Below are positions 1,760 through 44,950 of a stretch of DNA of 44,950 nucleotides, piece by piece. The stretch covers positions 1 through 44,950 of the IMG/VR virus record IMGVR_UViG_3300034069_000108; one strand, given 5' to 3'. The notes under the pieces were generated by a model. That model had not been told where the DNA came from and made no database searches. It saw only the letters and a program-made list of their open reading frames with translations. The stretch is from a virus. How positions within the stretch are numbered: position 1 is the stretch's first letter; each line of letters opens with the position of its first letter. Made by a program: the position numbers and the translations under genes.

Positions 1760-1788
1760 TTGACAAACGTTCTCATTCATGGTATAAT
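1760..1788 (+). promoter_or_regulatory. consensus sigma70 promoter (TTGACA-17 nt-TATAAT) driving the HNH gene
   Basis: ttgaca aacgttctcattcatgg tataat read directly. Perfect hexamers and spacer. Confidence 0.75.
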
Positions 1789-1815
1789 ATGCGTAATAGG
1801 GAGAACGTACACACT

Positions 1816-2304
1816 ATGACACGCATACTTACTGACGAACAGAAAGAGCGCAAGAGGCTTTACAACATTGAATATCGTAAGGCCAATCGCGAGAAATACC
1901 GTGACTATAACAAGGCGTGGGTCAAGAGGTCCGGTCACAAGTCTACTGAACAGACTCGCAATCGTCGCGCTTCACTCACTAAGGCTCAACAGATGTTTGA
2001 AAGGTCGCGTGACCGTGCAAAGCATCAAGACATTGCCTTTGATATTACCCCAGAGGACATTGTGATACCTGAATTTTGTCCGTATCTTGGAATACCCATC
2101 GTTACTGGCGTTGGTAAGATGACTGACAACTCACCTTCACTTGACAGGATCGACTCGGCTAAGGGTTATATCAAAGGGAACGTCGAAGTTATTTCGTTTA
2201 GAGCTAACACCATTAAGAACTGTGGAACACCTCAAGAACACATGATGATTGGTATTCGACAGTTGAAACTGCTTAATCAGCAAACCCCACCACAGTCGCA
2301 TTGA
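1816..2304 (+). CDS. HNH/His-Me-finger (endonuclease VII-like) homing-endonuclease-like protein, 162 aa; paralog of 44195..44683
   Basis: Motif FCPYLGIPIV...SPSLDRIDSAKGYIKGNVEVISFRANTIKNCG. The start was moved to the ATG at 1816 (SD GGGAGA) because the ORF-track ATG at 1789 abuts the -10 box. Opposite strand to the flanking genes. Confidence 0.75.
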   Translation: MTRILTDEQKERKRLYNIEYRKANREKYRDYNKAWVKRSGHKSTEQTRNRRASLTKAQQMFERSRDRAKHQDIAFDITPEDIVIPEFCPYLGIPIVTGVGKMTDNSPSLDRIDSAKGYIKGNVEVISFRANTIKNCGTPQEHMMIGIRQLKLLNQQTPPQSH

Positions 2305-3793: not shown

Positions 3794-3822
3794 TTGACAA
3801 ATGGAGTGTTTTGGAGTATAAT
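3794..3822 (+). promoter_or_regulatory. consensus sigma70 promoter (TTGACA-17 nt-TATAAT) for the rightward packaging/structural arm
   Basis: ttgaca aatggagtgttttggag tataat, 32 nt upstream of terS. Confidence 0.8.
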
Positions 3823-33228: not shown

Positions 33229-33654
33229 TTAGAACATGTCGATCCACCGCTTGAGGTCAGGGACAGGAACCAGAGGGTCAACCACACGAAAGCCCACAAA
33301 GCCAGTACCGGAGTCTGCGATCGCCTGAAACACCTTGATCCGGTCGTCCTTGTTGAGAAGGTTGAGGGCTCGTGCTGCTTCGGTTGCAAAGACGTACCGG
33401 TTGAAGAAGTCTTCGTCTTCCGTTACGATGTAGTTCTCTTGTCCCTTGCGGAAGGCAGTGAACCGTCCTGCAAACTCGTAGTCGCCACACGGTTCCCAAC
33501 CGTCGTCCAGAAGAGCCGACTGCCAGTCATGGTAGCCATTGACCAGAAAGACAGTGTCGTTGTCGGTGTCCTTCGGAGGTGGGTTGCAGATGTAACGAGA
33601 ACCAGTGGGCTGGCTTCGGAAAACTACGTCTTCGAACTTAACATTTTCTGTCAT
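33229..33654 (-). CDS. hypothetical protein, 141 aa
   Basis: ORF track. TAAATG and ATGA junctions with its neighbours. Confidence 0.7.
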   Translation of the reverse strand: MTENVKFEDVVFRSQPTGSRYICNPPPKDTDNDTVFLVNGYHDWQSALLDDGWEPCGDYEFAGRFTAFRKGQENYIVTEDEDFFNRYVFATEAARALNLLNKDDRIKVFQAIADSGTGFVGFRVVDPLVPVPDLKRWIDMF

Positions 33655-34178
33655 ACCAAACCTCGTTCTTTCAGAATGTCGTCCAACATGATGGGTCGAA
33701 AATTAGTACGCTCGACACAGGCACAGAAGTACCGTGGATCAGGCTTGCCTAGTGGCAGACCTACTTGATTGCTGTGCAAGTGACCATGAATATTTAGCTT
33801 CCATCGGGCCAGTGACTGTTCGTGGATCGGAATGTGGGACATAATAAATCCCTTCTTCACGATGTAACCACGAACGTCGTCAAACACTTCGGCGTACTGA
33901 CGCATCTTAGTCGGCTCGTGATTACCGGGGACCAGAACCTTACGGCCCTTAAGACGCCCGACTGTCTCACGAATCTTCACCGCACTGAATGCAACGTCAC
34001 CAAGAATGTAGACCCTGTCCTTGTCGTCAACCATTTCGTTGTACCACTGGATCATGTCTTCGGTCATCTGCCCAGCGTCGTCCCAAGGACGGACCTTTGT
34101 GCCGTCGAAATTGGTGAATTTACAGATGTTCTCATGGTAGAAGTGAGGATCAGAATAGACCCAAGTGGTTCCGCTCAT
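33651..34178 (-). CDS. calcineurin-like metallophosphoesterase
   Basis: Motifs SDPHFYH, ILGDVAF, VPGNHE, GHLH. Confidence 0.8.
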   Translation of the reverse strand: MSGTTWVYSDPHFYHENICKFTNFDGTKVRPWDDAGQMTEDMIQWYNEMVDDKDRVYILGDVAFSAVKIRETVGRLKGRKVLVPGNHEPTKMRQYAEVFDDVRGYIVKKGFIMSHIPIHEQSLARWKLNIHGHLHSNQVGLPLGKPDPRYFCACVERTNFRPIMLDDILKERGLV

Positions 34179-34184
34179 ACTATT

Positions 34185-34213
34185 ATCCTACAGACTTTTC
34201 ACAGATTTGTCAA
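34185..34213 (-). promoter_or_regulatory. candidate promoter (TTGACA-17 nt-TAGGAT) abutting the phosphoesterase ATG
   Basis: The reverse complement reads ttgaca aatctgtgaaaagtctg taggat aatagt ATG. It would imply a near-leaderless mRNA. Confidence 0.25.
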
Positions 34214-34219
34214 GCCCTT

Positions 34220-34360
34220 TTAGGCCCGACCGCTGATCTTGGCATAGATCGACAAAACAATCAACCAGAGGATGAGGGCAATAGGAAAGCCGATGATGGC
34301 CCCCTGAACAGGACCCCGGGTGAGTGCCGGAATCGTCTCTTCGTGGCGGTGCAGGCTCAC
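34220..34360 (-). CDS. hypothetical small membrane protein, 46 aa (GTG start; ..AIIGFPIALILWLIVLSIYA..)
   Basis: GTGA overlap with the upstream stop. One clear TM helix. Confidence 0.3.
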   Translation of the reverse strand: MSLHRHEETIPALTRGPVQGAIIGFPIALILWLIVLSIYAKISGRA

Positions 34361-34581
34361 TTGGCTACCACCCGGTAAGCGACACAGAACTTGCCGTTCA
34401 CCCAGCGCCGACCCACACTGTCGAGGTAAGCCTCGCTGACGGAGTCCATTCGGTTGACCCATTCGTTGGTCTTTTCGTCCAAGGTTTGCACCTTAAACGT
34501 CTTCGGAGTGTTCTTTGACATAGTAAGTTTCCTGTACTGTTCGTTGCGTTGGTTGACGTAAGCCTGAGTGGTGTCACTCAT
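34357..34581 (-). CDS. hypothetical protein, 74 aa (MSDTTQAYVNQRNEQYRKL...)
   Basis: The ATG is embedded in the upstream stop context (TATGAGTGA). The ORF track shows a longer version. Confidence 0.45.
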   Translation of the reverse strand: MSDTTQAYVNQRNEQYRKLTMSKNTPKTFKVQTLDEKTNEWVNRMDSVSEAYLDSVGRRWVNGKFCVAYRVVAK

Positions 34582-34870
34582 AGCTGTCCTCATTGTGGAA
34601 CGGAAGCTTGTACTGGTCAGGGTGACTGTGCCACGAGCCGACCTCAAGGGTTTCAACGTCAGAGTCAACGTCAAGGTCCCCAAGCTCTTCGAACTTCTCT
34701 TCGTCACCACGAACAAAACCGTCCGTGTAAGCCGCCTCCATTGCAGCTTCAAGACAGGTAGAACAAGGCTCGAATGCCCCGGTGCCGGGAAGCTTGCCGC
34801 CTTCCTTGTTCCAAACTACTTCGGTCTCAGACAGACCACGGTCGCAGACATGACAGTTCAACTGAACCAT
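34574..34870 (-). CDS. zinc-ribbon protein with a long acidic C-terminal tail ending in Glu (98 aa)
   Basis: CHVCD...CSTC, then GDEEKFEELGDLDVDSDVETLE...FHNEDSYE. ATG 5 nt after GAAAGGA. First gene after the promoter at 34927-34954. Confidence 0.6.
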   Translation of the reverse strand: MVQLNCHVCDRGLSETEVVWNKEGGKLPGTGAFEPCSTCLEAAMEAAYTDGFVRGDEEKFEELGDLDVDSDVETLEVGSWHSHPDQYKLPFHNEDSYE

Positions 34871-34886
34871 TCCTTTCAATTTAATT

Positions 34887-34922
34887 GACTTAGGGAGGGG
34901 GTTTACCGGCCTAAGCTCTTAA
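34887..34922 (-). promoter_or_regulatory. conserved 5' leader element, copy 1 (TTAAGAGCTTAGGCCGGTAAACCCCCTCCCTAAGTC)
   Basis: Begins 4 nt after the -10 box. About 30 of 36 positions are shared with the copy at 43472-43506. Contains a CCUCCC anti-SD-like run. CTTAGG/CCTAAG can pair. Confidence 0.5.
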
Positions 34923-34926
34923 CCTT

Positions 34927-34954
34927 ATTATACCACAGATTACGAATCTGTCAA
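34927..34954 (-). promoter_or_regulatory. consensus sigma70 promoter (TTGACA-16 nt-TATAAT with an extended TGn)
   Basis: The reverse complement reads ttgaca gattcgtaatctgtgg tataat. Confidence 0.75.
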
Positions 34955-34957
34955 GCT

Positions 34958-35233
34958 TTAAATTACGTCATTGAGGTCGTCGTCCGTCAGGGCCCAAGGA
35001 AGGTCCTTGAAAACCTGACGCTGAAGACGGGCAATGAGAAGGTACTCACGGAGGTGTCCGCTGCGACGAAGAAAGAAGAAGTCGCCAAGGGCTTCCATCT
35101 CGTCATCGTAAGCCAGATGGACGTCCCACTTGTCGTCAATCTCAAGCTGGTCACGAATTGCTTTGTCACCAACACGAGAAAGAAGAACGAACTTCTTGAC
35201 GAGATTGTTCTCAAGAATGACCTGAGTTGCCAT
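34958..35233 (-). CDS. hypothetical protein, 91 aa; last gene of the amidoligase operon
   Basis: ORF track. 15 nt downstream of the ATP-grasp stop. Confidence 0.65.
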   Translation of the reverse strand: MATQVILENNLVKKFVLLSRVGDKAIRDQLEIDDKWDVHLAYDDEMEALGDFFFLRRSGHLREYLLIARLQRQVFKDLPWALTDDDLNDVI

Positions 35234-35248
35234 CTGACTTACCTTAGC

Positions 35249-36022
35249 TTAGAGAAAGCGCTGAAAAGCTTCGACGTACTTCTCAGCCGTCCGCTCTTCA
35301 AGGCCACATGCCGTGTTGATTTCGAGGACGTAAGCCTGCTGTTCACGCTCGTTCCACATGACGTCCACACCACCGAAGTCGAGGTTCAAGGCTGCTGCTG
35401 CGTCAACTGCCTGCTGGATCACGTCGGCCGGAACGTCCTCGACTTGGACTTCAACAAACGCGAAACCGCCAGCAAGGTTGCGAACCTGCCAGTTAGGGTT
35501 TTCGTTGTCGAGCTTGCGGGCCTTACGCTGTACGAAGAAGGCACCCCCATTGAGAACATGAACACGGAACTCGTCCTTCTTCTTGACGTACTGAGTGTAA
35601 AGCGGTGCGTCGACCACCTCGTCCGGCGTGTTGGCCATAACGATGCCCGCACCACTGTGGCCGTTCAGCTTGGTGCGACAGACCACGACCGTGCCCCAGC
35701 CTACCGCAACAGCCCGCTCCTGACTAAACTCTGGTACTCGGACACCGGCTTCCTGAAGCGCATTGAACGAAGTGAGCTTGCACGACGCTGCCTTAACGGC
35801 TTCAGGGGCGTTGAGCCGGGTGGCGGCCGGAAAAACAGGACAACCAGAAGCACCCCAGTTAATAACCAAGTCACCAGCTCGGGGGTTGTACTTACTTCCG
35901 ACATGCTTGAGGACCTTTCCGCCCATTGCTTCGGCCAGCTTCTTCGCACTGGCACTGCCCTGATTGTAAGGATAAACGCGGACCACGGGACCACGTGCAA
36001 CCTTGTTCTGCTTCTTAATCAT
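35249..36022 (-). CDS. ATP-grasp ligase (RimK-like, phage type; 257 aa)
   Basis: Short pre-ATP-grasp region, then VVCRTKLNGHSGAGIVM, YVKKKDEFRVHV and FGGVDVMWN..AYVLEINTACGL, which resemble the ATP-grasp core and Mg-binding E-N. Confidence 0.8.
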   Translation of the reverse strand: MIKKQNKVARGPVVRVYPYNQGSASAKKLAEAMGGKVLKHVGSKYNPRAGDLVINWGASGCPVFPAATRLNAPEAVKAASCKLTSFNALQEAGVRVPEFSQERAVAVGWGTVVVCRTKLNGHSGAGIVMANTPDEVVDAPLYTQYVKKKDEFRVHVLNGGAFFVQRKARKLDNENPNWQVRNLAGGFAFVEVQVEDVPADVIQQAVDAAAALNLDFGGVDVMWNEREQQAYVLEINTACGLEERTAEKYVEAFQRFL

Positions 36023-36051
36023 CGTACTTCACTCCAAACTTGTGTGTTCTA

Positions 36052-37284
36052 TCAGTCTTCTTCGTCGAGGTCGTCACGAAGCGGGACAAGAGCTTCGAAG
36101 TCGACAGGACGGGCGTGCTGGGGTTCGTCCCATGCCTGAAGAAGACGGGCGCGTTCCTGTGCTGCCTGCATCATGCGTTCTTCCGCGTTCCGTACGTTAG
36201 CCGCTGCCTCAGCAAAACCGTCACCGAGGCGTACGTTCACCATTCCTTCCGGGTTGAAAAGAACACGTCCCGGAGCCTGACGAACACGGTTGACACGCGC
36301 TGCCGGACGGCCTCGCTGCGCCGCAAGAAGTGCTGGATCGACATCGAGAGCCGGTTCTTCATCACCAGCGAACGAGGCCCAAAAGTCGCGACCCCTAAGA
36401 CGCACCTGATCGAACTCGGTCCCGATGCGGTAACAGAGCATCTGCACCATGCGAAGACCTTCGTAAATCGAACCGCTGATGAGGTCGTCATTCAGGTTTG
36501 CCGTCAGAGCGTCGTAAGACTTGCGGCTGAACACTTCACGAAGAAAGCCCTTCGGCGTCTTGACCGAAATGTCTTCGATCAGGGTGGCCGGGTTCTTCAT
36601 CGTGTAACAAGCGTACTGACAGAACTCGTTCAGAATGTCGAGCCAAGCCAGAATGTCGGTCTTGTTGTCAAGCCCACGCATTGCACGGAACTCGACGGTG
36701 CCGAACTTGTTGATCGACGCCATGTTAAGCGAACAGTACCGCTGGTCCTCACGAAGAGTGCCGAACGACTGATGCTTGAACACTGCTTCCATCACCCAGT
36801 TGACCTGCTCTTCGGCGTGACGACTCGAAAGACAGAACAGGTTGCCCTTGCGGTCTTCACCACAGTAAGCGTCCAGAATGTCCTCAAGGATCGTGAACAG
36901 AATGAACAGATTGACGAGCTGGTACGCGCTCTTGTCGCCCATGTTGAAGTGGACGTGGAACGAAGTGCGATTCGAACACACGAGCTTGGCCTTGCGACCT
37001 TCGAAGTAGGTGAACAGCTTTTCGACACGGTCCACGCACTTTTCGTACTTGACAGGCCCGTTGAAGACCCACTCACAGCACGAGCCATGATGAGCACGAA
37101 GAGACCCGTCGTTGTGCGGAGCCCAGTCCTTCATCAGCTCAACACCTGCCTCCGACCCGTCGAAGTCCACGTTGCGACCTTCGCACTCCAACTCAAGGCC
37201 GAACACGTCTCCCTGCTTTGCACCACGACCCATACGAGTGACTGCCGGAACAGGGCTATTCAGAAAGTCTTGCAGCTTGGTCAC
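36052..37284 (-). CDS. glutamine-synthetase-like amidoligase (Amidoligase_2 family; 410 aa)
   Basis: FGLELECEG...HNDGSLR...CEWVF...SFHVHFNMG and FGTVEFRAMRG resemble the family core. Confidence 0.8.
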   Translation of the reverse strand: MTKLQDFLNSPVPAVTRMGRGAKQGDVFGLELECEGRNVDFDGSEAGVELMKDWAPHNDGSLRAHHGSCCEWVFNGPVKYEKCVDRVEKLFTYFEGRKAKLVCSNRTSFHVHFNMGDKSAYQLVNLFILFTILEDILDAYCGEDRKGNLFCLSSRHAEEQVNWVMEAVFKHQSFGTLREDQRYCSLNMASINKFGTVEFRAMRGLDNKTDILAWLDILNEFCQYACYTMKNPATLIEDISVKTPKGFLREVFSRKSYDALTANLNDDLISGSIYEGLRMVQMLCYRIGTEFDQVRLRGRDFWASFAGDEEPALDVDPALLAAQRGRPAARVNRVRQAPGRVLFNPEGMVNVRLGDGFAEAAANVRNAEERMMQAAQERARLLQAWDEPQHARPVDFEALVPLRDDLDEED

Positions 37285-37451
37285 TTCGTGTTACTCCTTA
37301 GATATTCTTCTAGAGCTTTTTCAGCCGTCTCTCTGGCCGTTTCTGCCCTAATTTCGTCCATACAGTTGTTGCCTCTGCTGGAAAGAATTTCCCAGACAGC
37401 AGCTTTTCTGTACTCGGCCATCAGTTGCTTTAAGCGAGAGGAATCCGACAT
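37281..37451 (-). CDS. hypothetical helical protein, 56 aa
   Basis: ATG at 37451, 7 nt after GGAGG. Overlaps the upstream gene by 22 nt and the next gene by a GTGA junction. Confidence 0.5.
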   Translation of the reverse strand: MSDSSRLKQLMAEYRKAAVWEILSSRGNNCMDEIRAETARETAEKALEEYLRSNTK

Positions 37452-38098
37452 TCTTCTGCCTCCTGCTTCAGAAAGTGGAACTTCGGGGGAAGTCGTAGCG
37501 CCTTGTCGTCCTTGAGAGCGATGCCGCACTTGACACCCTTGTGCATCAGAAGCAGTGCTTCCAAGTCGTGGTCGATTGCCAGAGCAAAGGTCCGCGAAAT
37601 GGCCACCGAACTGTGTTCCGCGTCACCAAGAAGCTCGCCCACGTCAGCAAACGTCGGGTACTTGCCGTTCACCATGTCGACGAAGCCCTGAGAAGCGATA
37701 ACCGACGCAAAGGAAACGTCGTCGTCCCGGTTGCCACGAATGTTCGTCAGCTTAAGCGTCTTGGAGTTGAGCCCCTGCTGATTTTGACGGACCGGGCTGC
37801 GGCTGGCGTAAAGAGCCTTGCCCTTGAAGTTAAGGTAGCCCATCTTGAACGGCGCAAGGTCGAAGTTGCGAGACGAAAGGTACTTACGCACTTCCTTCTG
37901 CTCCGGGCCGCCAAAACCACGAGTCTGGTAAGGCAGTTCGACGAAGAAGACGCGAGCCACTTCCTTCTTGTCTTCGGCTCCGTCAATTTCCTTGACACGA
38001 GTGATGTAAACGGGCTTGCCGTCGTACATGACCACCGTGTTGGCGAGACGGAAGTTGACCTCTTCCAGCGTCTCGTACTTGTCACCCTTGAGGCTCAT
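37430..38098 (-). CDS. conserved-looking hypothetical protein, 222 aa, inside the amidoligase operon
   Basis: ORF track; AAGGAAG SD. I recognise no motif. Confidence 0.75.
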   Translation of the reverse strand: MSLKGDKYETLEEVNFRLANTVVMYDGKPVYITRVKEIDGAEDKKEVARVFFVELPYQTRGFGGPEQKEVRKYLSSRNFDLAPFKMGYLNFKGKALYASRSPVRQNQQGLNSKTLKLTNIRGNRDDDVSFASVIASQGFVDMVNGKYPTFADVGELLGDAEHSSVAISRTFALAIDHDLEALLLMHKGVKCGIALKDDKALRLPPKFHFLKQEAEECRIPLA

Positions 38099-38116
38099 GG
38101 GTACGCTTCCTTGTGC

Positions 38117-38950
38117 TTAGAGTTCGCGGGCTGCGAGGTAGGCTTCACGGCCACCGCACTTGGCGAGGTAGTCCTTCAGATAGTACTCAGCCGAGTAGGT
38201 GTCGGACTGGTTGATGATCTGCTGAAGAACGTCTTCGCCGACGATGTTGAGTGCCCGCTTGCCAGCCATCAGGTCCTGCACGGCCTTGACGGTCTGATTG
38301 AAGACGAACTTCATCCGCTTTTCGTTGAGCAACCACGCATTCGAAAGGACGCGGTACTCGACACCGTACGACTTCGGGCGGAAGGCTCCGGCCTTGCCGT
38401 ACATGCCGCGGCGCTTCGTGTCCTTGTCGAACATCAGGCTGGGCAGGCCGAGGTAAGCGTCGAGCTGCTTGACCAGAGTGGCACACCGAATCATGTGGTC
38501 GTCGGACGTGGGGTCAGCACCCTGACAGAAGCCGATGTGAACGTGACCGCTGGCCGTACGCATCGTGGTCTGATTGTCCGGTCGCGGGTTGGCACCGAGG
38601 GTGTAAGCGTTGAAGTCGGGCTCGCAGCCCAGCTCCTTGGCTTCGTCCGGCTGAGCACGGAAGTGATTGCCGTTGAACCGCGCCGAAGGAACGATAGCGA
38701 AGTTGTAGTCCGGAACCATGTCCTGCATCTGCTTCATGACCGTGGTGATGTTGGTCACAAAGTCGTCGGCGTTGTCCACGGCGTCGATGTTGAACTCAAG
38801 TGCCATGCCGTCGACCTGAACCGCGCCCTTGTCGACCTTGTGCGGGTTCGCCTTGGTGCCGGGAATCAGGCCGTGTGCGCTGCGGAACTGGCCTTCCTTG
38901 TTGGTGACGAACAGTTCAGGGTCGGCACCGATGGTGATCTGAAGAGTCAT
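38117..38950 (-). CDS. phiEco32-type COOH-NH2 ligase (GCS2-like carboxylate-amine ligase; 277 aa)
   Basis: N-terminal ITIGADPELFV and the following layout match my memory of the COOH-NH2_lig family. AAGGAA SD. Confidence 0.78.
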   Translation of the reverse strand: MTLQITIGADPELFVTNKEGQFRSAHGLIPGTKANPHKVDKGAVQVDGMALEFNIDAVDNADDFVTNITTVMKQMQDMVPDYNFAIVPSARFNGNHFRAQPDEAKELGCEPDFNAYTLGANPRPDNQTTMRTASGHVHIGFCQGADPTSDDHMIRCATLVKQLDAYLGLPSLMFDKDTKRRGMYGKAGAFRPKSYGVEYRVLSNAWLLNEKRMKFVFNQTVKAVQDLMAGKRALNIVGEDVLQQIINQSDTYSAEYYLKDYLAKCGGREAYLAAREL

Positions 38951-38986
38951 GTTGAAGTTATTCCTTGCTAACAGAAAAATGCGGTT

Positions 38987-40264
38987 TTAATGGATGGAAA
39001 CAGCAGCCTTGGGCTCTTCATGAGCCGGATGGGAGCCGTCGAGGCACTTCTTGCAGACCGGACGACCCGGAGCCAACCACGCAAACCTGTCGTTCACGCC
39101 GATGTGTTCCAGTTCGCACCAGCTACAACCCGCGTCGAGGTCGTCACGAAGCTGATTCAGGGTCAGAGCCTTGCCCTGATACCCTTTGTAAGTCTTCCGT
39201 GCGTCGTCGATCGAAACAACCTTGTTACCCGTACCGTCGGGCAGGGCCAGCGTCGATCCAGTTTCGCTCTTCGGGGGTTGCTTCTCGCCAGAATCGCTTG
39301 TCGGGGTCCCAGATGGCGAAGTCGAAGTCAGCGGGGGAGTTCCTTTCTCCACCCACATTCGGCGGGTCGAGTCGTAAACCTTCCCCTCCAGCGTCCGGTT
39401 GCCGTACGACCCCGTTATCGGATGTGTGCTGCTCTGGCTGCTTGTTTGAGTCGTCGACGTTCCTTGCGGGTGAGGGTTCGTCGTGTTGTTGGGTCCACCC
39501 CGTCCACCAGTCGGTTGAAAAAAACCAGCGGTCTGCTTGCCGACCACGCCTCCTTCACGCTCGATGGTCAGCTCTTCGTTGTACTTGGTCGGAGCCGGAA
39601 TCTTGTAAAGCGTGTCTTCCGTGAAGGCGTAAACCTTGTCTTCGTGGAGCTTCAGATCGGACCGGCTGGTCGCAACCTTAATCATCCAGATTTCCGAAGC
39701 CCAGAACAGGGTCTTCTTGTCGTCCGACCACGCATAGAACAGGGTGCGTTCCTTGTTACGAACGATCCGCAGTTCTTCGGCGATGTGGTCGTAGTACGTG
39801 AGAGCCCACGCACCTTCGGCCTTGGCGATGGCAGCCTTGACGCCGTTGATGGCGATTTCGTTGTACAAGGCTTCAGAGTCCGTCCCGAAACGATTGTGGT
39901 CGGTCAGGGCATGCTTGTTCTTGAGGGTGCCGTTGTGAGCGCCAACCACCAAGCAACCCCCGTCCTCGTCGTCGATGGCGAAAGGATGAGCGTTGGTCTT
40001 GATGTTCTTGCCGATGGTGCCTGCACGGTTGTGGCCGATCCAGACGAAGTCGTTCAGCTTGAGATGTTCTGCCAGCTTGGGACCTTCGGTGAACTCGTAA
40101 CCCGGAACCGTCTGCTTGAGGATGGCAGTGTCCGCATTGTGACGGATGGCAGCGACGCCGGTCGAGTCACGACCCCGAAACGTGTCGAGGTAAAGCATGG
40201 TGGCGAGGCAGTCCTTGTGCTTCTGAAGCATGTTGGACGACATGATGCCGACGAGACCGCACAT
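38987..40264 (-). CDS. class-II (Ntn) glutamine amidotransferase with an S/T/P/G-rich linker and a C-terminal zinc ribbon (425 aa)
   Basis: Begins MCGLVGI (catalytic Cys2). RGRDSTG, HNR and GAHNG are GATase-II-like. The linker spans about aa 250-340. C-terminal CSWCE...CKKC. Confidence 0.85.
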   Translation of the reverse strand: MCGLVGIMSSNMLQKHKDCLATMLYLDTFRGRDSTGVAAIRHNADTAILKQTVPGYEFTEGPKLAEHLKLNDFVWIGHNRAGTIGKNIKTNAHPFAIDDEDGGCLVVGAHNGTLKNKHALTDHNRFGTDSEALYNEIAINGVKAAIAKAEGAWALTYYDHIAEELRIVRNKERTLFYAWSDDKKTLFWASEIWMIKVATSRSDLKLHEDKVYAFTEDTLYKIPAPTKYNEELTIEREGGVVGKQTAGFFQPTGGRGGPNNTTNPHPQGTSTTQTSSQSSTHPITGSYGNRTLEGKVYDSTRRMWVEKGTPPLTSTSPSGTPTSDSGEKQPPKSETGSTLALPDGTGNKVVSIDDARKTYKGYQGKALTLNQLRDDLDAGCSWCELEHIGVNDRFAWLAPGRPVCKKCLDGSHPAHEEPKAAVSIH

Positions 40265-40265
40265 G

Positions 40266-40424
40266 TTACTTAATCTCCTTCTTCTGGACAGTCACCACTT
40301 CCCGTGAGACCAGTTCGAAAAGACGACGCCCTGCGTAAAGACCGCTTTCGGCGTTAGCGAGGACTTCCTTCTCGGTCTTCTTTTCCGTAAAACCGTACGG
40401 AGTTTCGTAAGTAAATTTACGCAT
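40266..40424 (-). CDS. hypothetical protein, 52 aa (MRKFTYETPYGFTEKKTEKE...)
   Basis: ATG at 40424 after AAGGG. TAACATG junction to the GATase gene. Confidence 0.45.
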   Translation of the reverse strand: MRKFTYETPYGFTEKKTEKEVLANAESGLYAGRRLFELVSREVVTVQKKEIK

Positions 40425-40441
40425 GTTCTTCGCCCTTTCGA

Positions 40442-41128
40442 TTAGCAGGCAGGAATGACGTAGCTGTCGACCAAGTCGAGGAAAAAGTCTCGACACTCGC
40501 CGAAGGAAAACTCCGGATGAGGCTGGAAGCAGAGCGACCGAGTGGACTGATACCAGCACGCTTCCACGTCGGCATTTTCTTCCGGCTGTTCGAGGCGAAT
40601 TTCCTCACTGGCCGACTTCTTCACCGTGGCGAGGGTGGCAACGGCGAGAACTTCCGCGTCATCCGCCGGTCGCATCATCTGGTGATGGGTGGAAGTCATG
40701 TTGTGACGAACAGTGCCGTCGCGAAGGTCGACCACCGAATGGCCTCCGGTACGAGCGTGGTTGTTGACGTCCTGCCACAGCCTGCCGCCGTTCATCACGG
40801 TCAGAAACTGCGACCCACGACAGATGCCGACCATGGGCTTCTTGGACGCCACCGCGTCGATGTAAACCTGCTGTTCGACTTCGTCCCGCGCCGTGTTGAA
40901 GAACGTTTCCGCAAGGGCCTTTTCGCCGTACAGGGCAGGGTCAACGTCCGCACCGCCGGTGAAACAGATGATGTCAGCGTCTGCGACCGAAGTTGCACCC
41001 TTGAAGCCAGCGTCGAAGAACATCTTGATGTACTGGAACCCCCCGCCAACGACGAGAACACGCAGGTCCATGACTTCACGGGCCATTGCGGCTTCGTTGG
41101 CTTTCTTGACTTGTTCTTCGGTAAGCAT
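40442..41128 (-). CDS. class-I GATase-like / peptidase C26 (gamma-glutamyl hydrolase, PuuD-like; 228 aa)
   Basis: Nucleophile elbow VGICRGSQFL and CFQPHPEF (His-Glu). ATG at 41128 after AAGGAAAAC. Confidence 0.8.
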   Translation of the reverse strand: MLTEEQVKKANEAAMAREVMDLRVLVVGGGFQYIKMFFDAGFKGATSVADADIICFTGGADVDPALYGEKALAETFFNTARDEVEQQVYIDAVASKKPMVGICRGSQFLTVMNGGRLWQDVNNHARTGGHSVVDLRDGTVRHNMTSTHHQMMRPADDAEVLAVATLATVKKSASEEIRLEQPEENADVEACWYQSTRSLCFQPHPEFSFGECRDFFLDLVDSYVIPAC

Positions 41129-41217
41129 TTGTTCGTTTTCCTTGTTGTTAACTAAAGAGGTTGAGAAGCACATGAGCGGCAAAATTACCTAAAAGAAGGT
41201 AAAAAAGCACTTGACTT

Positions 41218-42213
41218 TTACAAATCGACCTCAAGAAAGACAGTGTCTTTGTTCGGCTTCGGCGCAGCACGTTTGCGAGCCGGTTTCTTTGCGACTTCAG
41301 CCACGGGAAACACGGCCTCGGCGTCGTCAATGCCAAGCTCCTTCTGCCATGCGAGGGCTGCCGCGACCATTTCTTCGGCCGTTGCGCCGTTGCCGGTGAT
41401 TTCACCGCCCCAGCCGTCCGACTTCTTGAAGGGCTTGCAGAACTTGGTGGCCTTGTCCCGAGCCTTCACTAGAAAGGCAGGCGGCAGGTCGTTCTTGGGC
41501 TTGGTCGACTTGAACACCGTGGCGGTGTCCGTGGCTTCGCGGTTGACTTCACAGTTGACAAGCCCCGCAATGTCGTACTCAGCGTTGTGCCAGCCGAACA
41601 CCGAAACGTGACCGTTGACGTCCTTGGCACTGAACACTGCACCCTTGTACGTGGTAATGTACGTACAGATAAGAACGGCGAGAAGAGGCTTGACACCGCC
41701 TTTCGTGAGGGTCAGCCACGCGTCGAGGGCCTGCTCACCTTCGGTCGTGTACCGCAACACCTTGCACATCCACATGACTTCGGCTTCGGTTGCGCCGTCC
41801 GGGCCGCAGAGGATGATGGCACCGTGATTGGTGAGGGAGTCGGGGTCGTCACGATTGACCACGTACTTGCCGAACGGGCAGTCGTCCGAAGCCATCCACA
41901 GAATGATCGCGTCGGTCGCTTCCGCCGAAGCCTTGGACATGGCGTGCTTGTGACAGGTGAGAACGAGAAAGTTTTCCGCGTTCTTTCTGTAGTCCGCAGG
42001 AGTTGCCCAGCCGTAACCTGCGTGGGGGTCCTTGCAGAAGTTCCGGAATCCTGCGGAAACCCAAGCATGGCAAGCGGAATGTGCCTGACCGAACTTTTCG
42101 CCCTTGAGGTTCATCATGGCCCCCATACAGCGTCCGCCGTCCCAAGCCTTGGTCGTGGACGCCAGAAGCGCCTTGGCCTTGTCAACCACTTCCTTGGTTA
42201 CAAACTGTTCCAT
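41218..42213 (-). CDS. hypothetical protein, 331 aa, inside the amidoligase operon; basic K/R/P-rich C-terminal tail
   Basis: ORF track, which starts at a GTG at 42219; the ATG at 42213 is preferred. I recognise no motif. Confidence 0.75.
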   Translation of the reverse strand: MEQFVTKEVVDKAKALLASTTKAWDGGRCMGAMMNLKGEKFGQAHSACHAWVSAGFRNFCKDPHAGYGWATPADYRKNAENFLVLTCHKHAMSKASAEATDAIILWMASDDCPFGKYVVNRDDPDSLTNHGAIILCGPDGATEAEVMWMCKVLRYTTEGEQALDAWLTLTKGGVKPLLAVLICTYITTYKGAVFSAKDVNGHVSVFGWHNAEYDIAGLVNCEVNREATDTATVFKSTKPKNDLPPAFLVKARDKATKFCKPFKKSDGWGGEITGNGATAEEMVAAALAWQKELGIDDAEAVFPVAEVAKKPARKRAAPKPNKDTVFLEVDL

Positions 42214-42239
42214 GTTCACTTCACCTTGCTGAATTGTGC

Positions 42240-42383
42240 CTACCGGATTTGACCAGTCCGCTTGTAATGACGAAAGTCGTCCTTGACCTGACGAGGTGTC
42301 TGGCCGTAAGACGTCATGAAAAAGTCCTCCAAGGTCAGCGTGCTGCGTGACTTACGGAGGACGGACGCACATTTGGAAGCCAC
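42240..42383 (-). CDS. small basic ORF, 47 aa from the GTG, or 25 aa from the ATG at 42317 with a strong GGAGGA SD
   Basis: Hand translation: ..MTSYGQTPRQVKDDFRHYKRTGQIR. Fills the gap between two operon genes. Confidence 0.3.
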   Translation of the reverse strand: MASKCASVLRKSRSTLTLEDFFMTSYGQTPRQVKDDFRHYKRTGQIR

Positions 42384-42386
42384 TCT

Positions 42387-43055
42387 TCACCACCCTTTCA
42401 TCGGTTGGTCCATGTAAACATTGACCTGCCTGCGAATTTCGTTGTGATGCGGTCGACCATTTTCGTAGCCAGCGTTCCACGTCAGACGACCGAACCAGCG
42501 CCACCCTTTCCGGACGCATTTGGAGCCCCTGTGGAAGGCGTTGTGGTCGAAGTGGACCAACTGGTTGCTGGGAGCCGAAACGAGGCTGAGAGCCCCTTCT
42601 TCGACGTCCTGATTGACCAAGTCGTTCCAGACTTCGTAAACGTTAGGGCCGAACAGTGGAACCTCGGGGTAGGACTGCTTGCCGACCGCAAATTGGGTGG
42701 GCGAAATGTCTCCGTTGACCAACGCAAGGACCATTGTCGCCGTGTTGGCGGGGTCTTCGTAGTTGGGCTGACCGTCCGACCGGGACCGAGGGACGTCGTC
42801 GTGGTGCCATCCCGGAATGCAAGGCCACCAGCCCGGCATCAGCATGTGAACCCGACTGTCGAAACAGGCATTGACCTGCATCCGTTCGTTGCCGAAAACC
42901 GCTTCCAGAAAAGCCTTGGTGATCGGTCCACCGTTCTCGTGGGCGAAGGCCGGAGTTGCGGAGAAGAACATGGGCTCGTCCTTCACCGTCTTTTCGTCGA
43001 ACTCGGGAAGCTTTTCACCGAGAAAGACCTTGCTGTCAAATTCAAACATCTTCAT
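42387..43055 (-). CDS. putative Fe(II)/2-oxoglutarate-type (cupin-fold) oxygenase (222 aa); first gene of the operon
   Basis: IPGWHHDD (HxD) and, about 95 aa later, FDHNAFHRGSKCVRKGWRW (distal His, Arg). Start taken at the ATG at 43055. Confidence 0.55.
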   Translation of the reverse strand: MKMFEFDSKVFLGEKLPEFDEKTVKDEPMFFSATPAFAHENGGPITKAFLEAVFGNERMQVNACFDSRVHMLMPGWWPCIPGWHHDDVPRSRSDGQPNYEDPANTATMVLALVNGDISPTQFAVGKQSYPEVPLFGPNVYEVWNDLVNQDVEEGALSLVSAPSNQLVHFDHNAFHRGSKCVRKGWRWFGRLTWNAGYENGRPHHNEIRRQVNVYMDQPMKGW

Positions 43056-43439
43056 GGTTAAAAGCCTTGCTAAAAGGTCGGAGTCCACTGGGACGGAGTT
43101 GCACCGCCACGTTTGAGTCTGCACTGACGCTTGCTGTGTCTTTTTATGTACCAAACCTGCCACCTGCCGTTTAAACGCGCCCGGTTAGCAAAGGAAGACC
43201 GTCAGGTTATTCGAAACGCCAAGCTGTTGCCAGAGGAAAGAAGGGCAGTCAAACACAGGAGATCAGGCTGACCAAAATGAACCACGTTCATGATGCGCCT
43301 TAGGCCGTGCCGGGACCACTGTTGGGCTAACGTACTTGCAAGTCAGCCAGCTATGCAGCCAGCCTACGTTTGCTTACTTCGTGGACGTAATATTCCAGCC
43401 CTGCTGAATGGCTGCCCACCGTTCCTCTGAATTTTTTAC

Positions 43440-43467
43440 TTGACTTTTTTGACTTTTATGTTATAAT
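43440..43467 (+). promoter_or_regulatory. near-consensus sigma70 promoter (TTGACT-16 nt-TATAAT) pointing antisense into the minus-strand genes at 43502-44143
   Basis: ttgact tttttgacttttatgt tataat. TTGACTTTT is tandemly duplicated. Confidence 0.65.
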
Positions 43468-43471
43468 ACTA

Positions 43472-43506
43472 TTAAGTGTTGCAGGCCAGTAAACCCCTCC
43501 CTCAGT
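43472..43506 (+). promoter_or_regulatory. conserved 5' leader element, copy 2 (TTAAGTGTTGCAGGCCAGTAAACCCCTCCCTCAGT)
   Basis: Begins 4 nt after the -10 box, as in copy 1. Overlaps the stop codon of the minus-strand ORF 43502..43594. Confidence 0.5.
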
Positions 43507-43594
43507 AGCGTTTATTACTGATCCACTTACCTGCTATGATAGCTAGGGGGATCGAGGCAACCGCCCAGATCACAATGTAGAGAAAGATTTTCAT
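43502..43594 (-). CDS. small membrane protein, 30 aa (MKIFLYIVIWAVASIPLAIIAGKWISNKRY)
   Basis: Hand translation. GGAG SD. One TM helix. Confidence 0.45.
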   Translation of the reverse strand: MKIFLYIVIWAVASIPLAIIAGKWISNKRY

Positions 43595-43606
43595 TTTCCT
43601 TACTCC

Positions 43607-44143
43607 TCATTGATGTTTAAACTCATTGAAGTTCGTCGCCCATAATTCTCGTTTGAAAGCGGGGGCACCTCGGTAGGTCCAGACAGGCTTACGACTACGG
43701 GGTGTCTTAAAACCGTCCAGATAACGCCATTTGTGTGTCATACAGAGACGATAGTCGAAAAACACATCGCCTGTGTCAAATCCGCTTGAATTGAAGTCGA
43801 ACACCAACGGTCCAGCAGGAATTGCTTCCGCTAGGTCTGCACAAAGACGTACGACCGGCTCGCTTTTGTGGTTACGCCTGTGGTCCGTCCTGAACTCGTA
43901 TTCGTTAGCCAACTCAAGGCCATGCTCCACCAACCAGAAGAAGTTGGAACGACTGCGGGCTGCCCACTTGGAGCAAGGGTGAGCAGTGTGAGTCGAACGG
44001 TAGATATTTTCGTTGTCAACACCCATGAGCCGAAGCGAAGTGGACAGTAGCTGGCAAGTTTCGACCAGCATCTTATTACACCGGACGTCATCCAAGGCTT
44101 GGGCACACTCACGAGGACAGGGTGAGGTTAAAAATATATTCAC
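43607..44143 (-). CDS. conserved-looking phage protein of unknown function (178 aa)
   Basis: MNIFLTSPCP..AQALDDVRCNKMLVETCQLLST and THTAHPCSKWA..S..NFFWL..HGLELANEY look like a widespread phage/virus family that I cannot name with confidence. Confidence 0.7.
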   Translation of the reverse strand: MNIFLTSPCPRECAQALDDVRCNKMLVETCQLLSTSLRLMGVDNENIYRSTHTAHPCSKWAARSRSNFFWLVEHGLELANEYEFRTDHRRNHKSEPVVRLCADLAEAIPAGPLVFDFNSSGFDTGDVFFDYRLCMTHKWRYLDGFKTPRSRKPVWTYRGAPAFKRELWATNFNEFKHQ

Positions 44144-44172
44144 TTGACTTCCTTACCATTTTAATGTATAAT
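44144..44172 (+). promoter_or_regulatory. near-consensus sigma70 promoter (TTGACT-17 nt-TATAAT) driving the second HNH gene
   Basis: ttgact tccttaccattttaatg tataat. The downstream AATAGGGAAAGG resembles the leader of the other HNH gene. Confidence 0.75.
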
Positions 44173-44194
44173 AATAGGGAAAGGATTCGACAAG

Positions 44195-44683
44195 ATGACT
44201 ATGGAATACAAGACCAGCCTCGCTAAACGAGAGGCGCAGAAGAAGTACCGTGAAGCTAACCGCGACTACTATGTCGAGTACGCTAAAAGGTACAACCCCC
44301 GTTACTGCGACATGAATCGCGAGCAACGCAAAGAGTACGCCAAAGCCTACCACCTGAAGAAAGTAAACACCTTTGAAGGACGCACCCTGAAGATTTTCCA
44401 AGGAGCAAAAGGCAGGGCTACCAAAGCTGGAATTGAATTTACGATCGCTTACGAGGACATTGATTGGGTTAATGTCTGTCCTCTTCTTGAGATTCCTATC
44501 GTCTACGACTACGCTGGCGCATTGCAGTGGGACTCACCGTCGCTGGACCGTGTAGACAGTACGAAAGGTTATGTCAAGGGGAATGTTCGAGTGGTTTCAC
44601 GCCGAGCTAACACCCTCAAAAACTGCGGGACAGTTGACGAGATTGAAATGCTTGGCCGAAACATTCGGGGATATGCGTCCTAA
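44195..44683 (+). CDS. HNH/His-Me-finger (endonuclease VII-like) homing-endonuclease-like protein, 162 aa; paralog of 1816..2304
   Basis: VCPLLEIPIV...SPSLDRVDSTKGYVKGNVRVVSRRANTLKNCG. Same length and motif order as the paralog. Reverse orientation to its neighbours. Confidence 0.75.
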   Translation: MTMEYKTSLAKREAQKKYREANRDYYVEYAKRYNPRYCDMNREQRKEYAKAYHLKKVNTFEGRTLKIFQGAKGRATKAGIEFTIAYEDIDWVNVCPLLEIPIVYDYAGALQWDSPSLDRVDSTKGYVKGNVRVVSRRANTLKNCGTVDEIEMLGRNIRGYAS

Positions 44684-44904
44684 AACTCGGCGATTACACC
44701 CCCGTTGACGTCGTTTGTCATCGCAAGGGTCAGCCAAGCAATGTGCTTTGCTTGTACTTCGTCTCTGGACCTGCTGTACTTGTCCGAAGACTGTTTAGCC
44801 AGTTGGACCCAACCGAAAAGAGTGCGTTTTTCGAGGACAGTAACCACGTCCCAAGTGGACTGCGACACGGAAATGTCCCTCATGCGGTACTTGGGGCGCG
44901 GCAT
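44680..44904 (-). CDS. hypothetical early protein, 74 aa
   Basis: ORF track. Its 5' part lies in the terminal overlap and is therefore also seen at 1..95. Confidence 0.55.
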   Translation of the reverse strand: MPRPKYRMRDISVSQSTWDVVTVLEKRTLFGWVQLAKQSSDKYSRSRDEVQAKHIAWLTLAMTNDVNGGVIAEF

Positions 44905-44950
44905 GATGCTACACCCCGAACCGAAGCGTGAGGCGACCCGGCAGACGTGC
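44810..44950. repeat. second copy of the 141-bp terminal overlap (equals 1-141)
   Basis: Identical sequence, read directly. Confidence 0.95.

What the first reader, a model, noticed from the sequence alone, without database searches (positions are those of the whole stretch)
43440..43506. Duplicated promoter-plus-leader module; this copy fires antisense into two genes
Two near-consensus promoters, at 34927-34954 on the minus strand and 43440-43467 on the plus strand, are each followed after exactly 4 nt by the same leader of about 35 nt.

The leader consensus is TTAAG-N-G-N-T..AGGCC(G/A)GTAAACCCC(C)TCCCT(A/C)AGT. About 30 of 36 positions are identical, while the -35 and spacer sequences differ. 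The leader carries CCUCCC, which is complementary to a GGAGG Shine-Dalgarno.

Copy 1 precedes the zinc-ribbon acidic-tail gene. Copy 2 has no downstream plus-strand ORF. It runs antisense through the 30-aa membrane ORF, whose stop codon lies inside the motif, and through the 178-aa gene.

This suggests either a shared RNA-level regulatory element or an antisense RNA control point just upstream of the amidoligase operon.
Basis: seen in the sequence. Interest (0 to 1): 0.62.

Follow-up and report, generated by a model that had tools for sequence, protein, structure and literature searches.

The report
Inverted promoter-leader module in podophage
An uncultured phage carries two copies of a very strong bacterial-type promoter fused to the same short transcribed leader; the copy that fires backwards into the end of the early genes sits at the same place in all six closest relatives, so it is a real control element and not an accident, although what it does is still inferred.

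Summary
Two near-consensus sigma-70 promoters, 34927-34954 (-) and 43440-43467 (+), are each followed after 4 nt by a 35-nt leader. The leaders match at 29-30 of 36 positions, while the 16-nt spacers between the promoter hexamers are unrelated.

Copy 1 is the ancestral site. A consensus promoter with a related leader lies ahead of the zinc-ribbon gene in about 20 related uncultured phages.

Copy 2 is an inverted duplicate:
- It is present in 6 of 6 genomes whose Pyr_excise-like gene is at least 61% identical to the window's.
- It always lies between the last small early ORF and a conserved non-coding stretch ahead of the gamma-glutamyl ligase cassette.
- It always fires antisense, and no intrinsic terminator follows within 900 nt.
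- It is absent from five more distant relatives.

The two leaders match each other within a genome in 3 of 4 genomes but differ between genomes.

CCUCCC is not a conserved anti-Shine-Dalgarno sequence. It is the 3' arm of a weak hairpin whose pairing differs between lineages.

Best reading: a promoter plus stem-loop cassette resembling the PeSL cassettes of T4-type phages. Its inverted copy acts as a head-on promoter and antisense-RNA source that bounds the early unit. That mechanism is inferred, not shown. Notes from this scan describe similar promoter-leader cassettes in other phage families.

The parts
34927..34954 (-). Copy 1 promoter: TTGACA-16-TATAAT with TG before the -10 hexamer and an A+T-rich stretch upstream
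   Evidence: 12/12 match; sequence. Homologous promoters stand ahead of the zinc-ribbon gene in relatives.
34888..34922 (-). Copy 1 leader, about +1 to +30 of the transcript. It can form GCUUAGG/CCUAAGU around GG-UAAA-CC.
   Evidence: RNAfold gives -9.5 kcal/mol, z = -2.5 to -2.8. A related leader is present in about 20 relatives.
34574..34870 (-). Zinc-ribbon gene with an acidic tail, the first gene downstream of copy 1
   Evidence: homologues aligned; relatives found.
43440..43467 (+). Copy 2 promoter: TTGACT-16-TATAAT with TG before the -10 hexamer and a T-rich stretch upstream. It points against the leftward gene flow.
   Evidence: 11/12 match. Antisense consensus promoters sit at the same junction in L104, L106, L108, L114 and L115.
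43472..43506 (+). Copy 2 leader, which overlaps the stop codon of the 30-aa ORF. Its hairpin potential is weaker: UUG(C)AGG/CCUCAG with a bulged C.
   Evidence: RNAfold gives -4.3 to -4.6 kcal/mol, no better than shuffles.
43502..43594 (-). 30-aa membrane ORF with a GAGGAG Shine-Dalgarno sequence, the last ORF of the early block. The predicted copy-2 RNA would cover it fully in antisense.
   Evidence: L114 has a similar 35-aa membrane ORF in the same place.
43607..44143 (-). Pyr_excise-like gene of 178 aa with a GTG start. It would be read in antisense if the copy-2 RNA extends that far.
   Evidence: Pfam PF03013, E = 1.9e-6; 36 homologues.
43056..43439 (-). Conserved non-coding stretch between copy 2 and the first gene of the gamma-glutamyl ligase cassette. 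It is a candidate structured leader RNA and is not part of the repeat.
   Evidence: Nearly identical in L114. Blocks are shared with L108, L115, L104 and L106. No Rfam match.
44144..44683 (+). HNH endonuclease gene with its own consensus promoter. It is the only plus-strand gene downstream of copy 2.
   Evidence: tblastn matches to the HNH genes of relatives.

Best explanation
The two sites are paralogous copies of one regulatory cassette. The cassette is a very strong host sigma-70 promoter (an A+T-rich upstream stretch, TTGACA, TG plus TATAAT) fused to a fixed initial transcribed region of about 35 nt. That region has a purine-rich start, GG, an A-rich stretch at about +14 to +19 and a C-run at about +20 to +25, and it can form a short stem-loop whose pairing differs between lineages.

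Copy 1 is the ancestral copy. It restarts transcription after the 8-kb gamma-glutamyl ligase cassette and drives the zinc-ribbon and replication genes.

Copy 2 is an inverted duplicate that arose in one subclade and has been kept there. It sits head-on at the 3' end of the early block. I infer two effects:
- RNA polymerase bound at or firing from copy 2 obstructs read-through of early transcription into the non-coding leader and ligase cassette (transcriptional interference).
- Copy 2 produces an untranslated antisense RNA across the last early ORF or ORFs, probably ended by Rho or by collision rather than by a terminator.

The likeness of the two leaders within a genome is most simply due to occasional gene conversion or recombination between the copies, as described for PeSL cassettes of T4-type phages.

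Shown: the repeat, its conservation, its position, its orientation and the strength of the promoter match.
Inferred: that transcripts start there, and what they do.
For: - The repeat is real and not due to chance.
- A copy-1-type module stands ahead of the zinc-ribbon gene in L046, L047/G003, L048, G002, L089, L090-L093, L095, L099, L101, L106, L108, L110, L111, L113 and L117.
- A copy-2-type antisense module is present in 6 of 6 genomes with Pyr_excise at least 61% identical: the window, L104, L106 (= L107), L108 (= L109), L114 and L115. Five of them have a 12/12 promoter, and the junction is always the same.
- The module is absent from L110, L111, L113 and G002. No Pyr_excise or p258 homologue and no antisense promoter were seen in G003.
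- The copy-2 promoters of L106 and L114 share 14/16 spacer positions with the copy-1 promoter of L111, so the whole module was duplicated.
- Within-genome identity of the two copies: 55 nt in L104, 25 nt in L106 and 83% in the window, but only the first 9 nt in L108.
- No plausible ORF and no intrinsic terminator lie within 900 nt downstream of any copy 2.
- PeSL cassettes are defined as strong sigma-70 promoters with A+T-rich upstream DNA plus a GGGG...CCCC stem-loop that serve as recombination sites (PMC2839356).
Against:
- Hairpin support is weak. RNAalifold finds no consensus pair. Mean z against dinucleotide shuffles is only -0.3 to -0.6, and the opposite strand folds as well or better in 15-16 of 23 cases.
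- The interference and insulator role is pure inference. Relatives without copy 2 have the same gene order, so copy 2 is not essential to the architecture.
- If copy 2 is only a roadblock, nothing explains why its leader is conserved. That may point to a factor that recognises the leader.
Confidence: 0.45

Rival explanations
1. The leader is a recognition site for a genome-specific factor, working like lambda nutL/nutR or a leader-binding repressor. In this reading the leader RNA, a small G/C-clamped hairpin with an A-rich loop, recruits a phage protein to RNA polymerase at two outward-facing promoters. Both transcripts then share one control: processive antitermination or timed shut-off. With antitermination, the copy-2 RNA could run antisense through the roughly 5 kb of early genes into the co-oriented late genes.
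For: - The two promoters point outward from the ligase cassette, as PL and PR point outward from the lambda immunity region (own knowledge).
- The leaders match within a genome and differ between genomes (window, L104, L106). This is the pattern known for nut sites and their cognate N proteins.
- A-rich apical loops recur: UAAA, UAAAA, GAAAG, AAGAAG.
- L104 copies 1 and 2 both keep GGAGG/CCUCC but with loops of 9 and 7 nt. An RNA hairpin tolerates that; a dimeric DNA operator would not.
- The leader is retained in copy 2 although no ORF follows.
- Copy 2 has the same orientation as the late arm.
Against: - No boxA lies on the sense strand. Only the reverse complement of TTAAGAGC resembles boxA.
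- No conserved stem register exists.
- No candidate N-like protein was identified.
- The two L108 leaders differ after +9, so matching is not obligatory.
- The late arm has its own 12/12 promoter at 3794.
- The genome is poor in intrinsic terminators that would need overriding.
Confidence: 0.2
2. The leader is a DNA-level operator. A phage or host DNA-binding protein binds the +1 to +35 region of both promoters and represses them together.
For: - The position relative to the -10 hexamer is fixed in all copies.
- Palindromic arms often begin 1-3 nt after the -10 hexamer, that is, upstream of the likely start site (G003, G002, L089, L096, G001).
- Both strands fold equally well.
- The leaders match within a genome and differ between genomes.
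Against: - The distance between the arms varies widely between lineages (7, 11, 15, 20 nt) and by 2 nt between the two copies in L104. This is unlike the half-sites of one repressor family.
- No repressor candidate was identified.
Confidence: 0.12
3. Copy 2 is a functionally neutral by-product of recombination, a mobile promoter cassette copied in inverted orientation. Any transcription from it is tolerated noise.
For: - The modules behave as recombination substrates. Within-genome identity has sharp borders.
- The 5' half of the L108 copy-2 leader (TTAAGAGCTTAGGCC) equals that of the window's copy 1, and the loop of the window's copy 2 equals that of L089 copy 1.
- Homing endonuclease genes with their own consensus promoters sit next to these sites in L046 and the window.
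Against: A neutral 28-bp promoter would not stay at 12/12 or 11/12 in six genomes whose neighbouring protein is only 61-67% identical. The chance expectation is 0.155 such sites per genome.
Confidence: 0.1
4. Type I toxin-antitoxin-like pair. The 30-aa membrane peptide is a toxic or tightly dosed protein, and the copy-2 RNA is its convergent antisense antidote, as in txpA/RatA or bsrG/SR4.
For: - The window and L114 have 30-35-aa hydrophobic ORFs with strong Shine-Dalgarno sequences.
- The 3' ends of these ORFs overlap the start of the convergent RNA.
Against: - In L104 and L106 the ORF under the antisense RNA is a 41-50-aa hydrophilic helical peptide. L108 has unrelated 67-aa and 48-aa ORFs. 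L115 has none called.
- The RNA has no terminator, so no discrete antitoxin RNA is defined.
- The same leader heads an ordinary mRNA at copy 1.
Confidence: 0.06
5. Replication origin of the T4 oriF/oriG type: a strong promoter whose transcript forms a primer or R-loop just downstream.
For: - A strong promoter with a fixed initial transcribed region and no gene behind it at copy 2.
Against: - The RNA is C-rich, not G-rich, which does not favour stable R-loops (own knowledge).
- No A+T-rich unwinding element follows the leader.
- Copy 1 is an ordinary mRNA leader.
Confidence: 0.05

Closest known systems
PeSL (promoter-early stem-loop) regulatory cassettes of T4-type phages (Arbiol et al. 2010, PMC2839356; Comeau et al. 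2014, PMC4122927)
   Same: A strong sigma-70 consensus promoter with A+T-rich upstream DNA is joined to a stem-loop built from a G-run and a C-run. The unit is repeated within a genome. It shows signs of recombination between copies and between phages, and it lies at the borders of an exchangeable gene block.
   Different: There are two copies per genome, not about 50. The copies are inverted, not direct. The stem-loop lies downstream of the -10 hexamer, inside the transcript. No terminator activity is indicated, because no U-tract follows. The host phages are Zobellviridae-like podoviruses, not T4-type myoviruses. The flanked block is an 8-kb enzyme cassette, not single ORFans.
Lambda PL-nutL / PR-nutR, and HK022 putL/putR
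   Same: Two outward-facing early promoters are each followed by the same short RNA element. The copies match within a phage and differ between phages.
   Different: No sense-strand boxA and no fixed boxB geometry are present. No N-like protein is known here. The element starts at the very 5' end of the transcript. The put RNAs are about 70 nt long with two stems.
Convergent-promoter and cis-antisense controls in phages: P22 sar/ant, lambda OOP/cII, coliphage 186 pR/pL interference
   Same: A promoter faces an incoming transcription unit, and the predicted RNA is antisense to the 3'-most gene and its ribosome-binding site.
   Different: sar and OOP are short RNAs with terminators, whereas no terminator follows copy 2 within 900 nt. 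The target gene is not conserved among relatives. The promoter is a duplicate of an ordinary mRNA promoter-leader.
5'-terminal stem-loops that stabilise mRNA (ompA type; own knowledge)
   Same: A hairpin lies within a few nucleotides of the predicted 5' end of both RNAs, at a fixed distance from the promoter.
   Different: The predicted stems are weak and inconsistent, and several begin upstream of the likely start site.

Membership tests
PeSL cassettes (T4-type phages) | [quoted passage not shown] | tested here: met
   12/12 and 11/12 hexamer matches with TG before the -10 hexamer. A/T-rich stretches lie upstream. Six such promoters are observed against 0.155 expected.
PeSL cassettes (T4-type phages) | Adjacent stable stem-loop, typically GGGG...CCCC | tested here: inconclusive
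   The GG...A-rich...CCCC pattern is conserved. Clear stems exist in L104, L089, L106 and the window's copy 1. There is no consensus structure, and mean z is only -0.3 to -0.6.
PeSL cassettes (T4-type phages) | The stem-loop terminates or attenuates transcription coming from upstream | not testable with these tools
   No U-tract follows the stem on either strand. A reporter assay is needed.
PeSL cassettes (T4-type phages) | Many direct copies per genome, flanking single ORFans in hyperplastic regions | tested here: not met
   There are exactly two copies, inverted and 8.5 kb apart.
Lambda-type nut site | boxA (CGCUCUUA-like) 5' of boxB on the transcript | tested here: not met
   The sense strand reads UUAAGAGC. 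Only its reverse complement resembles boxA. The comparison with boxA rests on my own knowledge.
Lambda-type nut site | boxB: a 5-bp stem with a GNRA-like pentaloop | tested here: inconclusive
   Apical G/C stems of 2-5 bp carry A-rich loops of 4-9 nt, and the geometry varies.
Lambda-type nut site | Cognate arginine-rich N-like protein | not tested
   No candidate was sought systematically.
Lambda-type nut site | The two sites of one phage match each other and differ from those of other phages | tested here: met
   Met in the window, L104 and L106. L108 is an exception.
Short cis-antisense RNA (P22 sar, lambda OOP) | A discrete RNA ended by an intrinsic terminator | tested here: not met
   No hairpin followed by a U-tract lies within 900 nt downstream of any of the six copy-2 promoters.
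Type I toxin-antitoxin | A small hydrophobic toxin ORF conserved opposite the antisense promoter | tested here: not met
   The ORF is hydrophobic in the window and L114 only. The ORFs in L104, L106 and L108 are different.
Any Rfam family | Covariance-model match | tested here: not met
   No hit at gathering thresholds across the window, and nothing relevant at E up to 5 around copy 2.

The most novel reading that the evidence does not exclude
The leader is a genome-specific loading signal of the nut or put kind. It would make RNA polymerase that starts at both outward-facing promoters resistant to termination. The copy-2 transcript would then run antisense across the whole early region into the co-oriented late genes. 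One conserved inverted promoter would both silence the early genes and feed late transcription in a podovirus that encodes no RNA polymerase.
Probability: 0.1. Interest if true: 0.75.

Novelty: new variant of a known kind. Interest (0 to 1): 0.45.

Why it matters
Phages of this group have no RNA polymerase of their own, so they must time their genes with host sigma-70 polymerase alone. How they do that is unknown.

A perfectly conserved consensus promoter aimed against the early operon, built by inverting a copy of the middle-gene promoter-leader, is a simple and testable candidate for how the early unit is bounded or shut off.

It also extends the promoter-plus-stem-loop cassette idea (PeSL) from T4-type myoviruses to an unrelated podovirus lineage. 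There the two copies bracket the widely exchanged gamma-glutamyl ligase cassette.

The module is short (about 70 bp), strong and portable, so it can be tested directly in laboratory E. coli.

Tried and rejected
- **Exact-core scan of IMG/VR** (AGGCCRGTAAACCCC): 43 hits. None has a promoter or the rest of the motif, so they are chance matches or unrelated coding sequence.
- **Megablast of 33000-44950 against cultured phages:** no match.
- **tblastn of the zinc-ribbon protein against cultured phages:** no match.
- **tblastn of the Pyr_excise protein against cultured phages:** at most 37% identity, so the subclade is known only from metagenomes.
- **Citrobacter phage CVT22**, the nearest named family member by its ATP-grasp gene: tightly packed genes and no such module.
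- **Rfam:** nothing.
- **Anti-Shine-Dalgarno reading:** rejected. CCUCC is not conserved (L089, L099, L114, L115, L106 copy 2), pairing with the downstream Shine-Dalgarno sequence is 3-5 bp at best, and copy 2 has no gene.
- **One conserved RNA secondary structure:** RNAalifold gave 0 pairs on a 17-sequence alignment. The stems are not in register in a second alignment. I therefore ran no count of structure pairs test, and I claim only lineage-specific hairpin potential.
- **G:U wobble as evidence for the sense strand:** rejected, because the opposite strand folds as well or better.
- **Terminator for the early transcript on the opposite strand:** the hairpin is followed by A/U-mixed sequence, not a U-tract. 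Left open, not claimed.
- **Invertible segment:** no invertase gene was seen, the cassette has the same orientation in every relative, and copy 2 is absent in relatives that have the same cassette.
- **CRISPR-repeat mimic (RNA anti-CRISPR):** considered because of GGUUGAAAG-like loops. Not pursued, because the geometry does not match known repeats and the host is unknown.

Full report
**What the window is.**
The 44,950-bp window is a complete uncultured viral genome whose two ends repeat 141 bp. Its G+C content is 52.9%.
- Its ATP-grasp protein is 45-50% identical to those of Zobellviridae and allied podoviruses: Citrobacter phage CVT22, Salinivibrio CW02, Pseudomonas O4 and Vibrio VPp1.
- No cultured phage matches it at the DNA level.
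- Late genes run on the plus strand.
- The genome has six promoters with at most one mismatch to TTGACA-N16-18-TATAAT, against 0.155 expected from dinucleotide shuffles. These are at 1760+, 3794+, 29121-, 34954-, 43440+ and 44144+.

**The observation.**
- After TATAAT and 4 nt, copy 1 (minus strand) reads TTAAGAGCTTAGGCCGGTAAACCCCCTCCCTAAGT at 34922-34888.
- After TATAAT and 4 nt, copy 2 (plus strand) reads TTAAGTGTTGCAGGCCAGTAAACCCCTCCCTCAGT at 43472-43506.
- They agree at 29-30 of 36 positions with two single-base indels. The 16-nt spacers between the hexamers are unrelated, and similarity stops at about +35.
- The 20-nt core occurs exactly twice, and no shuffle of 100 had two matches. A sequence-only covariance model finds no third copy.
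- The stop codon of the 30-aa ORF lies inside the copy-2 leader.
- The 178-aa ORF behind it is a genuine Pyr_excise-family gene.

**Copy 1 is conserved at a homologous position.**
I used the ATP-grasp and zinc-ribbon proteins as anchors in IMG/VR, in metagenome contigs and in the large protein collection. In about 20 distinct relatives I found a consensus promoter followed by a related leader immediately upstream of the zinc-ribbon gene, or of a homing endonuclease gene inserted in front of it.

Even the promoter spacer is conserved across many of these genomes, in the form TTGACAAATCTGAAAAATGTGGTATAAT.

The features of the leader that recur at a fixed distance from the -10 hexamer are:
- a purine-rich start (TTAAGAG, TATAGG or TTGTAGG);
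- GG;
- an A-rich stretch at positions 20-26 after the -10 hexamer;
- a C-run.

Short-leader promoters of the same phages share only the TATAAG-like start.

**CCUCCC is not a conserved anti-Shine-Dalgarno sequence.**
- The closest relative L089, whose zinc-ribbon protein is 68% identical, has ...CCCTTACCTTTAAC there. That sequence forms a perfect 9-bp stem with GTTAAAGGT.
- In the window, CCCUAAG pairs with CUUAGG in copy 1, and CCUCAG pairs with UUG(C)AGG in copy 2.
- In L104, GGAGG pairs with CCUCC.
- The C-rich segment is therefore the 3' arm of a stem whose sequence and register differ between lineages.

**How good is the hairpin?**
Support is moderate at best.

Evidence for a hairpin:
- Individual cases are clear: L104 at -15 kcal/mol with z = -2.9, the window's copy 1 with z = -2.5, and L106 copy 2 with z = -2.7.
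- There are local compensatory changes. GGG/CCC in G003 becomes GUG/CAC in L046.
- U:A in the window's copy 1 corresponds to G:C in copy 2.
- L104 copies 1 and 2 both keep GGAGG/CCUCC although the C-rich arm is rearranged.

Evidence against a strong or common fold:
- RNAalifold finds no consensus pair.
- Mean z over 23 leaders is only -0.33 for the likely transcript and -0.63 when the six untranscribed bases after the -10 hexamer are included.
- The opposite strand folds as well or better in 15-16 of 23 cases.
- In several relatives the 5' arm starts 1-3 nt after the -10 hexamer, that is, upstream of the probable start site.

I therefore call it a stem-loop-capable element and leave open whether the active form is RNA of this strand, read-through RNA or DNA. 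The change in arm spacing (7 nt against 9 nt) between the two L104 copies argues against a dimeric DNA operator.

**Copy 2 is conserved too, and this is the main new result.**
The Pyr_excise-like protein has relatives at 61-67% identity in L104 (= L117), L106 (= L107, NCBI JAWVHD010001296.1), L108 (= L109), L114 and L115.
- Every one of them has a consensus sigma-70 promoter with a leader of this family. Five have a 12/12 match; the window has 11/12.
- In each genome it points back at the Pyr_excise gene.
- In each genome it lies after the last small early ORF and before a conserved non-coding stretch and the gamma-glutamyl ligase cassette.
- More distant relatives with the same gene order (L110, L111 and L113, 44-56% identical) lack it. 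So does G002, where a truncated Pyr_excise gene abuts the next gene.
- The spacers of the L106 and L114 copy-2 promoters match the copy-1 spacer of L111 at 14 of 16 positions. The whole module was therefore duplicated and inverted once, in the ancestor of this subclade.
- A neutral relic would not keep a perfect 28-bp promoter while the neighbouring protein diverged to about 62% identity.

**What lies downstream of copy 2.**
- None of the six genomes has an intrinsic terminator within 900 nt, and none has an ORF with a ribosome-binding site.
- The RNA would be antisense to the last early ORF. That ORF is not conserved:
  - a 30-35-aa membrane peptide in the window and L114;
  - a 41-50-aa hydrophilic peptide in L104 and L106;
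  - other ORFs in L108;
  - none called in L115.
- This argues against a dedicated toxin-antitoxin-like pair. It favours a role tied to position, at the boundary between the early block and the cassette.
- Copy 2 has the same orientation as the late arm, about 5 kb away.

**Likeness of the two copies within a genome.**
- In L104 the copies are identical over 55 nt, from -17 to about +27.
- In L106 they are identical over 25 nt of leader.
- In the window they are 83% alike.
- In L108 they share only the first 9 nt.
- Between genomes the leaders differ much more.
- Chimeras occur. The 5' half of the L108 copy-2 leader equals that of the window's copy 1. The loop of the window's copy 2 equals that of L089 copy 1.

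The simplest cause is occasional gene conversion or recombination between short homologous cassettes, which is the behaviour described for PeSL cassettes of T4-type phages (PMC2839356). The same pattern is also what a genome-specific factor binding both leaders would produce, as with lambda nutL/nutR and N. L108 shows that matching is not obligatory.

**Interpretation.**
High confidence:
- The two sites are paralogues of a conserved promoter-leader cassette.
- Copy 1 is the promoter of the zinc-ribbon and replication block.
- Copy 2 is a selected, outward-facing antisense promoter.

Inferred, moderate to low confidence:
- Copy 2 works head-on against early transcription by promoter occupancy, collision and antisense RNA. 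It thereby separates the early block from the non-coding leader and ligase cassette.

Rivals:
- a nut-like or repressor-like factor site;
- a DNA operator;
- a neutral recombination by-product;
- a type I toxin-antitoxin-like pair;
- a T4-type replication origin.

**Limits.**
- The subclade is known only from metagenomes.
- Both copies could be compared in only four genomes.
- Earlier notes of this scan describe similar inverted or multi-copy promoter-leader cassettes in Acinetobacter and other phages. Those are unchecked AI notes, and I used them only as leads.

Noticed in passing
window 43056-43439 (minus strand sense); L114 4010-4420; L115 1650-2060; L108 1540-1750; L104 3870-4830; L106 10760-11270: The gap between copy 2 and the first gene of the gamma-glutamyl ligase cassette is conserved non-coding sequence of about 220-970 nt. 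It is nearly identical between the window and L114. Shared blocks include CTTGCAAGT, CCGGCACGGCCTAAGGCGC and GGTCAGCCTGATCTC. A terminal hairpin GGNGG-UGCAACU-CCNCC shows compensatory changes: GGCGG/CCGUC, GGUGG/CCACC and GGGGG/CCCCC. There is no Rfam match. It is possibly an undescribed structured leader or riboswitch-like RNA for the cassette. Gaps at the same place also exist in relatives that lack copy 2 (L110, L111, L113).
   Followed up: partly
window 42387-43163 (-): The 258-aa ORF is probably over-extended. Its homologues in G002 and L114 start at the internal MKMFEFDS / MSDNKIIEIDS position. The true start would then be near 43055, and the upstream 108 nt would be non-coding.
   Followed up: partly
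L046 4672-5055; L049 and L100 upstream of the zinc-ribbon gene; window 1760-2304 and 44144-44683: Homing endonuclease genes, each with its own consensus promoter and an AATAGGGA-type leader, repeatedly sit right next to the promoter-leader modules. In L046 one is inserted between the copy-1 leader and the zinc-ribbon gene. The module borders may therefore be preferred insertion or recombination sites.
   Followed up: partly
G002 (L079) 2641-2829: In this relative the Pyr_excise-like gene survives only as a 62-aa C-terminal remnant that directly abuts the p258 homologue. There is no small ORF, no antisense promoter and no long non-coding gap.
   Followed up: no
whole window: Terminator-like sites are no more frequent than in shuffled sequence, and tend to be fewer (14 against 17.4, 16 against 20.3, 9 against 16.6). 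The phage seems to rely little on intrinsic terminators, so other ways of bounding transcription units are worth considering.
   Followed up: no
L116 (Citrobacter phage CVT22) 6500-6979: CVT22 has a gene annotated as an RNA polymerase sigma factor just downstream of its primase/helicase gene. I did not check whether the window encodes a counterpart that could redirect host polymerase.
   Followed up: no
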